DNA of 64,000 nucleotides from a virus, in IMG/VR virus record IMGVR_UViG_3300017728_002360; one strand, 5' to 3'. Within the stretch, counting starts at the first letter, position 1, and the number at the start of each line of letters is the position of its first letter. Position numbers and translations under genes: made by a program. The notes under the pieces are model-generated. The model was not told the DNA's origin and ran no database searches. It saw nothing but the letters and a program-made list of their open reading frames with translations. Below, piece after piece: positions 37,441 to 39,789 of this stretch.

Positions 37441-38607
37441 ATGTCACAACTACTAGAAAGTCGCTGGCAGGATACCAAAACTGCACTTTTAGAAGGCCTT
37501 AACGGCAATAAAAAGGCTGTAATGGCAAGTACTCTAGAAAACACACGCAAGTGGTTAAATGAGACTGCTACAGCTGGTTCTACAAGCGCCGGTAATGTTG
37601 CAACTCTAAATAGAGTTATTCTACCAGTAATCAGACGTGTCATGCCGACTGTAATAGCCAACGAATTAGTTGGTGTACAGCCGATGACAGGTCCAGTGGG
37701 TCAAATCCACACATTAAGAGTACGTTACGCTGATTCGTCAGATGGTAACGAAGTTGGTGAAGAAGCACTATCACCATTTAAGATCGCGGCGGCATACTCA
37801 GGTAACGCCACTGACGCAACACCAAAAGGATCTGCTACAGCGGCTCTTGAAGGTGCGGCTGGAAAGAGAATGTCTATCCAGATCTTAAAGCAAACAGTCG
37901 AAGCAAAAACCAGAAAGCTATCAGCAAGATGGACTTTTGAAGCGGCTCAGGATGCTCAAGCACAGCAAGGCATCGATATTGAAGCAGAAATTATGGCGGC
38001 ATTAGCCCAAGAAATTACTGCTGAGATCGATCAAGAAGTATTAGCTTCTTTGAGAGCTTTAGCTGGTACGCAAAACCAACAAGCATACGACCAGAACGCT
38101 GTAAGCGGTACTGCAACATTCGTAGGTGATGAACACGCGGCTTTGGCTGTGATGATCAACCGTGTTGCTAACAATATCGCACAGAGAACTAGACGTGGTG
38201 CTGGTAACTATGCTGTGGTTTCACCACACGCATTAACTATCCTACAATCTGCAACAACTTCAGCGTTCGCAAGAACAACTGAAGGTGCATTTGAGGCTCC
38301 AACTAATACTAAAATGGTTGGTACTTTGAATAGTGCTATGAAAGTATATGTTGATTCATATGCAAACGATAGTACAAGCATACTTGTAGGTTACAAAGGT
38401 TCAAGTGAATCAGACGCTCCAGCGTTCTACTGCCCATACATTCCTTTAATGTCAAGCGGTGTAGTACTGGATCCTGCAACTTTTGAACCAGTAGTTAGCT
38501 TTATGACAAGATACGGTTATGTTGAGTTAAACAACACAGCATCATCTCTTGGTAATGCGGCAGACTACTTAGGTACAGTTACTATTGCGAACGTAACATT
38601 TAGCTAA
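37441..38607 (+). CDS. gp23: Major capsid protein
   Basis: IRRVMPTVIANELVGVQPMTGPVGQI, EAKTRKLSARWTFEAAQD, FYCPYIPL and FMTRYG. Confidence 0.97.
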   Translation: MSQLLESRWQDTKTALLEGLNGNKKAVMASTLENTRKWLNETATAGSTSAGNVATLNRVILPVIRRVMPTVIANELVGVQPMTGPVGQIHTLRVRYADSSDGNEVGEEALSPFKIAAAYSGNATDATPKGSATAALEGAAGKRMSIQILKQTVEAKTRKLSARWTFEAAQDAQAQQGIDIEAEIMAALAQEITAEIDQEVLASLRALAGTQNQQAYDQNAVSGTATFVGDEHAALAVMINRVANNIAQRTRRGAGNYAVVSPHALTILQSATTSAFARTTEGAFEAPTNTKMVGTLNSAMKVYVDSYANDSTSILVGYKGSSESDAPAFYCPYIPLMSSGVVLDPATFEPVVSFMTRYGYVELNNTASSLGNAADYLGTVTIANVTFS

Positions 38608-38642: not shown

Positions 38643-38670
38643 AGAAAGGCCCTTCGGGGCCTTTCTTTTT
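38643..38670 (+). terminator. Rho-independent terminator after gp23
   Basis: AGAAAGGCCC-TTCG-GGGCCTTTCT followed by TTTT. Confidence 0.92.
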
Positions 38671-38688
38671 GACTAAATATTTGTACAA

Positions 38689-38735
38689 CGTTCAGCCGAT
38701 ATAGGCCGGAAGTAAGCATCTAAGCTGAAGGAACG
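38689..38735 (+). promoter_or_regulatory. Glutamine riboswitch aptamer (glnA-motif type)
   Basis: P1 CGTTC/GAACG, P2 GCC/GGC, junction GGAAGTAAG...CTGAAG (E-loop) and P3 AGC/GCT match my recollection of the glnA glutamine-riboswitch consensus. TAAATA at 38674-79 lies just upstream. Confidence 0.8.
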
Positions 38736-38761
38736 CACTTAACTGTAAAAAGGAGAGTGTA

Positions 38762-38953
38762 ATGAACAGATACGATTACCTACTTAAATCATACCGTGAG
38801 CAGAAAATGAGAGAACGCAAGGAGAAAATCCTTATGAAATCTCGTACTGAAGTTAACGTGAATGGAAATGGTACATCTGGATATACTGTTACAACTGGAC
38901 CAAGCAAAGGTAAAGTTTTAAAGCATATATCGATTAATCACGATAATAAGTAG
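38762..38953 (+). CDS. Small basic protein downstream of the glutamine riboswitch (63 aa)
   Basis: AGGAG RBS at 38751-55; Lys/Arg/Asn-rich. Confidence 0.75.
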   Translation: MNRYDYLLKSYREQKMRERKEKILMKSRTEVNVNGNGTSGYTVTTGPSKGKVLKHISINHDNK

Positions 38954-38972: not shown

Positions 38973-39001
38973 TTGACTTTTTTAGGAAAGTTTGCTATAT
39001 T
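38973..39001 (+). promoter_or_regulatory. sigma70-type promoter with no downstream ORF
   Basis: TTGACT (38973-78), 17-nt spacer, TG-extended TATATT (38996-39001). Same -35 as the gp55 and gp47 promoters. Confidence 0.75.
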
Positions 39002-39007
39002 AGTAAC

Positions 39008-39223
39008 ATAAGCATTAGTAGAGTAATTAACTACTAATTATAGTGCAAGGAAGAGGCCTTTACCAGAAGGGTCGAACTTGACTAACCAGGGGTGGTACCC
39101 AGGCTTTACCCGGAAAACGGAGGGAGTCACATCGAAGTCACTTTCGGGGTTAGGTTGTGCGTATTAGAATGGTATTCGGGTACGTGCTTGTAGGTGTAAC
39201 CAAGTCCTACCTATTTTGCTTAT
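39008..39223 (+). ncRNA. Candidate ~216-nt structured sRNA
   Basis: The predicted +1 (39008) is the first base of ATAAGCA, which pairs with TGCTTAT (39217-23). Internal stems include ATTAGTAG/CTACTAAT, GGCCTTT/AAGGGTC, CTAACC/GGTTAG and GTAGG/CCTAC. Confidence 0.65.
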
Positions 39224-39253
39224 ACTTTCCTTTACCCATTCCCTAAACTTTGA

Positions 39254-39342
39254 TAAATACTTGTGTCTATAAAGCGAGCCGCAAAATACGGCGGACTTAT
39301 GCGGACATAACCGCGTAGACCTAGAACGTCAAGGAGAAAAAA
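39254..39342 (+). promoter_or_regulatory. Late promoter plus structured 5' leader
   Basis: TAAATA at 39254-59; stems GTCTAT/GTAGAC, GCCG/CGGC and GCGG/CCGC ahead of the AAGGAG RBS. Confidence 0.55.
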
Positions 39343-39789
39343 ATGGGAAGACCAATTAATAAAAGATTTTTCGGAACACCAACAGCTGGTGGAAACGAAA
39401 TAAAAGTAGACTTTCATAATGGCACAGCCGTTAAAGAAGGTTATATCGTAAAACAAAAAGGTTCAAAGAAATTTGTTTGTGAAGAAATCGGAACAGCAGG
39501 TGAATTTACTTGTACACTAACAACAGGTAAACTTGCAAGTGCTTTAGCGGCAGGCGAAATGGCCATTACGGTAAAAGGTGACGATAACGAAACTTATCAA
39601 ATCTCTAAAATCGCAGGTAGAAAAGCTACAGTGATTGCACCAGATGGTACAGGATCAAATGCACTATCAGGAACATCATTAGCTTGGACATTTACAGCAT
39701 CTGGCTCAGATGGAGCGGCGCAGATCGAAGAAGCAGGTGATGATAACACATTATCAGGTACTGACGACGACGATTTCAGTAATGCGTAA
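39343..39789 (+). CDS. Virion structural protein, unknown function (148 aa)
   Basis: MGRPINKRFFG...GYIVKQKGSKKF; strong RBS; late promoter; followed by a hairpin. Confidence 0.7.
   Translation: MGRPINKRFFGTPTAGGNEIKVDFHNGTAVKEGYIVKQKGSKKFVCEEIGTAGEFTCTLTTGKLASALAAGEMAITVKGDDNETYQISKIAGRKATVIAPDGTGSNALSGTSLAWTFTASGSDGAAQIEEAGDDNTLSGTDDDDFSNA

What the first reader, a model, noticed from the sequence alone, without database searches (positions are those of the whole stretch)
38973..39223. Orphan ~216-nt sRNA with its own sigma70 promoter inside the late structural cluster
Seen: TTGACT-17-TATATT shares its -35 and spacing with the gp55 and gp47 promoters, yet no ORF follows. The expected start (39008) coincides with a 7-bp 5'/3' closing helix ATAAGCA/TGCTTAT. 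Inside are several stems, a purine-rich internal loop (GAAGA/GAA), and a possible pseudoknot between GGTTGTGC and GTGTAACC. I cannot assign it to tRNA, tmRNA, 6S, SRP or RNase P. Inference: an early or middle trans-acting phage RNA, such as a protein decoy, anti-defence RNA or ribozyme.
Basis: partly seen in the sequence, partly recalled or inferred. Interest (0 to 1): 0.75.

Follow-up and report, generated by a model that had tools for sequence, protein, structure and literature searches.

The report
Self-pairing manA RNA in marine phage
The flagged stretch is a real folded RNA of about 216 bases in an uncultured marine T4-like phage, but it is a divergent form of the already catalogued manA RNA; its evolution suggests it is made from its own promoter and that copies pair with one another, as in the RNA cages recently seen in the test tube.

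Summary
Real, but not an orphan. 39016-39220 matches Rfam manA (RF01745) end to end (50.9 bits, E 6e-12; cut-off 55.2). Two relatives pass the cut-off, and a model built from 78 homologues finds a canonical cyanophage manA. The fold is strongly supported by covariation. The conserved loop pairings are L5-L7, L8-L9 and a self-complementary L1, the three contacts reported between subunits of a 60-mer manA cage (2026 preprint). Two neighbouring bases of L1 covary as a pair in 70 of 70 sequences; they can pair only between molecules. A sigma70 promoter precedes 69 of 78 homologues. Most are followed by a terminator or the next gene's late-type promoter, downstream genes vary, and the RNA is gained or lost 7-8 times among close phages. 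That favours a free-standing accessory RNA over Rfam's 'cis-regulatory' label. This copy lacks a terminator, and no discrete transcript was shown. Biological role unknown; best guess is a self-assembling scaffold or decoy. The scan has reported free-standing manA genes in several other phage genomes.

The parts
38973..39001 (+). sigma70-type promoter with extended -10; predicted start about 39008
   Evidence: a promoter of at least 10/12 precedes 69 of 78 homologues, mostly 37-40 nt before the same core motif, vs 24 of 3000 random windows; inferred, not mapped
39008..39223 (+). manA-family RNA, divergent variant (Rfam-matched body 39016-39220 plus terminal helix P0)
39008..39014 (+). P0 5' strand, pairs with 39217-39223; outside the Rfam model
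   Evidence: helix 1: 82.9% paired, A-U/U-A swap in 38/33 sequences
39015..39037 (+). P1 hairpin; loop L1 holds a self-complementary hexamer at 39024-39029 (predicted L1-L1' contact between molecules)
   Evidence: 87% paired; perfect 6-nt palindrome in 61/78; neighbouring bases 39026/39027 Watson-Crick complementary in 70/70: AU 55, GC 15
39040..39043 (+). P2 5' strand, pairs with 39211-39214
   Evidence: invariant; the 5' side was part of my search pattern
39046..39080 (+). P3a/P3b with the purine-rich internal loop 39050-39054/39074-39076 (position of module M1 of the cryo-EM paper) and loop L3 (39062-39066)
39082..39153 (+). four-way junction P4-P5-P6-P7; L5 39092-39097, L6 39113-39117 (GAAAA), L7 about 39136-39143; L5-L7 kissing pairing
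   Evidence: P4 96.5% paired, all 6 pairs compensatory; L5-L7 z -4.2
39157..39187 (+). P8 with loop L8 (39170-39174)
   Evidence: L8-L9 z -5.3; 7 held-out sequences p 0.0095
39190..39210 (+). P9 with 11-nt loop L9 (pairing bases 39199-39202)
   Evidence: (100% paired, 3 of 5 pairs compensatory)
39224..39252 (+). pyrimidine-rich tract without a terminator hairpin, where most relatives carry an intrinsic terminator
39254..39259 (+). TAAATA late-type promoter core of the next unit (freshwater-2 leader plus 148-aa gene)
   Evidence: recurs before many structural genes of the window; kept 90-111 nt before the 148-aa gene in 35 of 38 related slots, with or without manA; inferred

Best explanation
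A divergent manA-family RNA made from its own host-polymerase (sigma70) promoter, so probably early in infection, and possibly again late by read-through from the riboswitch unit upstream. It folds into the manA scaffold (P1-P9, four-way junction) clamped by an extra helix joining its two ends (fold shown by covariation; promoter use inferred). Copies then pair loop to loop: L5-L7' and L8-L9' would close a pentamer ring and the self-complementary L1 would join rings two-fold, giving a closed decamer-to-cage particle as reported for other manA RNAs (loop pairings shown by covariation; L1 pairing is necessarily between molecules; stoichiometry inferred from the preprint). The product is the RNA itself, an optional phage factor. 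Most likely it is a stable multivalent scaffold or decoy that binds or sequesters host factors during takeover, rather than a switch for the neighbouring gene. That last step is inference only; no partner is known. Odds: manA family about 0.95; product is the RNA rather than a cis switch about 0.75; self-assembles about 0.7; scaffold/decoy role about 0.35.
For: Rfam manA over the full model; relatives L043 and L094 above the cut-off; reciprocal full-length hit to S-CREM1 manA. Nested fold: 88.4% paired vs 73.2% shuffled, 45 of 67 pairs with two-sided changes, covariation 0.427 vs 0.159 shuffled and 0.08-0.13 slid. Of 21 loop pairs only L8-L9 (z -5.3), L5-L7 (z -4.2) and weakly L3-L8 (z -2.9) beat permutation; these are the interfaces named in bioRxiv 10.64898/2026.07.01.735769, which also lists L1-L1' for the 60-mer. 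L1 is palindromic, and no other loop is. Promoter in 69/78; terminator directly behind 35 of 52 non-gp32 copies (2.4% of random windows); late-type promoter directly behind all 26 copies before gp32; 15 different downstream gene clusters. Present in 24 of 38 related capsid-to-148-aa slots, 7-8 gains or losses, while the downstream gene keeps its own promoter. Canonical S-CREM1 manA lies between two tRNA genes.
Against: This copy scores below Rfam's cut-off. It has no intrinsic terminator, so it may be read through into the freshwater-2 leader and the 148-aa gene. In four relatives (L081, L132, L105, L173) a gene starts 13-23 nt behind the RNA with no terminator, as in a 5' leader. The L5-L7 pairing is weak in this copy (3-5 bp with G-U). 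L5-L7 and L8-L9 could be intramolecular; sequence cannot tell. The cages were seen only in vitro, at about 3 mg/ml RNA and 10 mM Mg2+, and five of ten manA RNAs screened gave no structure. Homologues look mosaic, so tree counts may include recombination.
Confidence: 0.6

Rival explanations
1. Cis-regulatory leader or orphan riboswitch, as Rfam and Weinberg 2010 classify manA: a ligand binds the conserved core and controls the downstream gene (here via read-through to the freshwater-2 leader and 148-aa gene).
For: Rfam type 'Cis-reg'; PMC2864571; no terminator in this copy; in Pelagibacter phage Mosig the RNA ends 13 nt before a rubrerythrin gene, and a peroxiredoxin-like gene follows in two others; a conserved non-canonical core.
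Against: Terminator straight after the RNA in 35/52 copies; unrelated downstream genes; the downstream gene has its own promoter and leader with or without manA; P0 clamps both ends; no expression platform seen; L1 needs a second molecule.
Confidence: 0.17
2. Trans-acting but mainly monomeric or dimeric RNA (protein decoy, or translation-related RNA working with phage tRNAs): L5-L7 and L8-L9 are internal pseudoknots and only L1 dimerises.
For: Same free-standing evidence; tRNA genes occupy the same slot in L020, L022, L063, and S-CREM1 manA is in a tRNA array; covariation cannot separate intra- from intermolecular pairing.
Against: All five solved manA structures are oligomers (octamer to 60-mer), and L5-L7' is an intermolecular contact in four of them.
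Confidence: 0.18
3. Ribozyme, or antisense RNA against a specific host or defence mRNA.
For: Only its structural complexity.
Against: No ribozyme family hit at E<=10; the exposed loops covary with each other rather than staying fixed to an outside target; manA RNAs were purified intact for cryo-EM.
Confidence: 0.05

Closest known systems
manA RNA motif, Rfam RF01745 (Weinberg et al. 2010, PMC2864571; Rfam update PMC7779021)
   Same: Same helix order P1-P9, four-way junction, L5 and 11-nt L9 loops, marine T4-like phage host range; full-length model match; L5-L7 pairing probably corresponds to the motif's weakly supported 'pseudoknot?'.
   Different: Below the gathering score; extra end-to-end helix P0; different sequence in the P3 internal loop; hexamer palindrome in L1 where the consensus has a GACG loop; own promoter and (in most relatives) own terminator, against the 'cis-regulatory' label.
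manA_A0F1 (60-mer cage) and manA_67AA (decamer), bioRxiv 10.64898/2026.07.01.735769
   Same: Carries candidates for all three A0F1 interfaces: L5-L7', L8-L9', L1-L1'.
   Different: P6 is long, as in the other group; L1 is a 6-nt palindrome; L5-L7 is weaker in this copy; assembly untested.
Photobacterium manA (pho_A28C, pho34_A767; decamers), same preprint
   Same: Long P6 with a purine-rich cap, the same P9 stem sequence and a similar L9 (by eye); L3 is complementary to L8 in this copy.
   Different: L3-L8 covariation is weak here (p 0.0045, not significant after 21 tests) and is lost in one clade; L8-L9 is the supported pairing.
GOLLD and ROOL RNAs (bioRxiv 10.1101/2024.12.08.627333, abstract seen; assemblies described)
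   Same: Structured RNAs of unknown role that form RNA-only multimers; their link to phages is from my own knowledge.
   Different: Several hundred bases, different folds, dihedral assemblies; no Rfam match here.

Membership tests
manA RNA (RF01745) | Score at or above the Rfam gathering threshold (55.2 bits) | tested here: not met
   50.9 bits, E 5.7e-12, model 1-192/192; close relatives reach 58.6 and 61.9. Filed as a divergent variant for this reason.
manA RNA (RF01745) | Helix architecture P1-P9 with four-way junction P4-P5-P6-P7 | tested here: met
manA RNA (RF01745) | Reciprocal homology to a canonical member | tested here: met
   model R1 finds S-CREM1 manA full length, 34.2 bits, E 4e-10, next best hit 9.7 bits; Rfam scores that RNA 96.6
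manA RNA (RF01745) | L5-L7 loop pairing (interface I1) | tested here: met
   family z -4.2, 0/2000 permutations; weak in this copy
manA RNA (RF01745) | L8 pairs with L9 or L3 (interface I2) | tested here: met
   L8-L9 z -5.3; held-out p 0.0095; L3-L8 inconclusive
manA RNA (RF01745) | Non-canonical modules M1 (P3a/P3b) and M2 (base of P4) | tested here: inconclusive
   conserved purine-rich loop at the M1 position; geometry not testable, and one strand was in my search pattern
manA RNA (RF01745) | Position in a 5' leader regulating the downstream gene | tested here: not met
   terminator or separate promoter follows 69 of 78 homologues; this copy has no terminator but a separate promoter and leader follow; 4 copies are leader-like
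cage-forming manA (A0F1 type) | Self-complementary L1 for L1-L1' | tested here: met
   interface named
cage-forming manA (A0F1 type) | Pentamer, decamer or 60-mer formation | not testable with these tools
   needs SEC, mass photometry or cryo-EM
tRNA, tmRNA, 6S, SRP, RNase P, known ribozymes | ARAGORN or Rfam match | tested here: not met

The most novel reading that the evidence does not exclude
Marine jumbo-type and pelagiphage T4-like phages express manA as a free-standing gene whose product assembles inside the infected cell into a protein-free RNA ring or cage. The covariation of L1, whose neighbouring bases can pair only between molecules, would be evolutionary evidence that these assemblies are selected in nature and are not a test-tube artefact.
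Probability: 0.35. Interest if true: 0.8.

Novelty: new variant of a known kind. Interest (0 to 1): 0.42.

Why it matters
manA has been listed as an orphan riboswitch candidate since 2010. A 2026 preprint shows manA cages in vitro but gives no biological evidence. This subfamily offers two testable points: the RNA is usually its own gene, and its intermolecular contacts (above all L1-L1') are kept by compensatory change. A cultured host-phage pair carries a member (Pelagibacter phage Mosig), so the question can be tested in vivo. The family itself is known, and the scan has met it several times.

Tried and rejected
Rfam at the gathering threshold missed it; the E-value mode found it. L3-L8 was left open. 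Metatranscriptomes: 11 RNA runs hold part of the region, but all are kept as contigs; in four runs laid, the RNA body had little or no cover (0-12, partly from relatives), while the conserved capsid gene was well covered. Contigs give no ends, strand or level, so this counts neither way. The window's own assembly is not held, and the nearest record is a 17-kb fragment without the locus. blastn hits to Bacillus and Listeria phages: those listed cover only the AT-rich promoter end, so they were ignored. Short ORFs over the RNA (29-33 aa, no ATG) were rejected as coding because homologues carry indels there. A possible pairing of the downstream pyrimidine tract with the RNA core or the next start codon is not conserved even in near relatives. 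A tRNA-CCA-binding role for L8 was rejected because L8 changes with L9. One search crashed part-way and was redone. No paper on freshwater-2 or on manA transcripts in infected cells was found.

Full report
Setting. The window is part of an uncultured T4-like phage: late sigma factor, SbcCD-like nuclease, portal, protease and major capsid genes. The capsid protein is 68-71% identical to those of 350-470 kb jumbo phages, and the region is found in seawater sequencing runs. After the capsid gene (37441-38607) come a terminator (38643-38666), a glutamine riboswitch (38687-38739), a 63-aa ORF, the flagged promoter and RNA, a late-type promoter core, a freshwater-2 RNA (39277-39345) and a 148-aa gene.

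Observation. Promoter, lack of an ORF, closing helix and purine-rich loop are as described. Folding energy is not exceptional (z -1.5). The proposed pseudoknot is a chance match: it is not conserved (59.6% paired vs 61.2% in shuffles), and helices of that length occur in every shuffle.

Identity. At Rfam's curated thresholds the RNA is missed. In E-value mode it matches manA (RF01745) over all 192 model positions, 50.9 bits against a cut-off of 55.2, E 5.7e-12. Relatives score 58.6 and 61.9. A model built from 78 distinct homologues finds the canonical manA of cyanophage S-CREM1 over its full length. It is therefore a divergent manA, not an orphan.

Fold. On the 78-sequence alignment the nested structure P0-P9 pairs in 88.4% of cells (shuffled 73.2%, slid 37-52%); 45 of 67 pairs change on both sides. 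Caveats: homologues were gathered with a 16-nt core pattern, so invariance there is by construction; P6 and the tip of P8 are imperfectly aligned; the shuffle control ignores relatedness. P0, which joins the predicted first base to the last, lies outside the Rfam model.

Loop pairings. I scored every pair of loops without alignment, cognate against permuted partners. Of 21 pairs only L8-L9 (z -5.3), L5-L7 (z -4.2) and, weakly, L3-L8 (z -2.9) stand out. Seven more distant sequences not used in the model keep L8-L9 with different letters (p 0.0095). These are the intermolecular interfaces reported for manA pentamers in bioRxiv 10.64898/2026.07.01.735769, whose helix numbering fits mine; I could read its text and legends but not its figures. 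The supplement adds L1-L1' for the 60-subunit cage. Here L1 holds a perfect six-base palindrome in 61 of 78 sequences, in several versions; mean palindrome length is 5.0 against 3.3 in shuffles (0/5000), and no other loop shows this. The two central, adjacent bases are complementary in 70 of 70 sequences (AU 55, GC 15; the GC form needs 2-4 origins on the tree, though recombination may contribute). The remaining eight have the GACG loop of canonical manA. Adjacent bases cannot pair within one strand, so the simplest reading is pairing between two copies. A palindromic DNA-binding site is a weaker alternative.

Cis or trans. A sigma70-like promoter of at least 10/12 precedes 69 of 78 homologues (0.8% of random windows). 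An intrinsic terminator follows 35 of the 52 copies outside the gp32 group (2.4% random); a late-type promoter follows all 26 copies that precede gp32; downstream genes fall into 15 clusters. Among 38 distinct related capsid-to-148-aa slots, 24 carry the RNA, needing 7-8 gains or losses, while the 148-aa gene keeps its own promoter core in 35. tRNA genes fill the slot in some relatives, and S-CREM1 manA sits between two tRNAs. This favours an optional free-standing RNA gene over the cis-regulatory label of PMC2864571. Against it: this copy and its nearest kin have no terminator, four relatives look like leaders, and RNA-seq contigs could not show a discrete transcript.

Mechanism. Shown: family, fold, conserved loop complementarities, recurring promoter and terminator context, patchy presence. 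Inferred: early transcription by host polymerase, a stable end-clamped RNA (3' end in this copy by processing or factor-dependent termination), assembly into rings or cages through L5-L7', L8-L9' and L1-L1', and a scaffold or decoy role. The variant combines the long P6 of the decamer-forming Photobacterium RNAs with the contacts of the 60-mer type, so its stoichiometry cannot be predicted. No partner or phenotype is known.

Verdict. New variant of a known RNA family. The scan has filed free-standing manA genes before. The added value is the comparative evidence that pairing between copies is under selection. Interest 0.42.

Noticed in passing
window 38674-38953: Glutamine riboswitch (RF01739, 54.9 bits, above cut-off) behind a late-type promoter core, leading a 63-aa basic ORF (phrog_32989, no Pfam). 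No terminator was found between it and the manA RNA. Glutamine riboswitches are already reported in marine phages (PMC9004378).
   Followed up: partly
window 39254-39345: freshwater-2 RNA (RF02980; 45.4 bits, cut-off 49.9; most relatives scanned pass it) is the constant leader of the 148-aa gene of no known family, so three Rfam motifs lie within 670 bases.
   Followed up: partly
L085, L086, L120 and 23 more: Second context: in 26 homologues the RNA ends directly at a TATAAATA late promoter 60-100 nt before gp32 (single-stranded DNA-binding protein). L085 and L121 also carry an alphaproteobacterial-type tmRNA nearby.
   Followed up: partly
L081:3967-4634 (Pelagibacter phage Mosig), L132, L105, L173: Unannotated manA-variant RNA directly before rubrerythrin or peroxiredoxin-like genes without a terminator: the best candidates for a cis role, and a cultured system for tests.
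   Followed up: partly
L020:2656-2884, L022, L063:2790-2863: tRNA genes (Trp, Gln, Cys; Gly) occupy the slot where other relatives have manA.
   Followed up: no
alignment A1: Homologues look mosaic: the same P1, P6, P7 and P8 types recur in different combinations (e.g. the window's P6 in L122/L199), suggesting exchange of whole helices between phages.
   Followed up: no
window 39062-39066: Loop L3 keeps ACCA in most homologues; pairing with L8 explains this only partly.
   Followed up: partly
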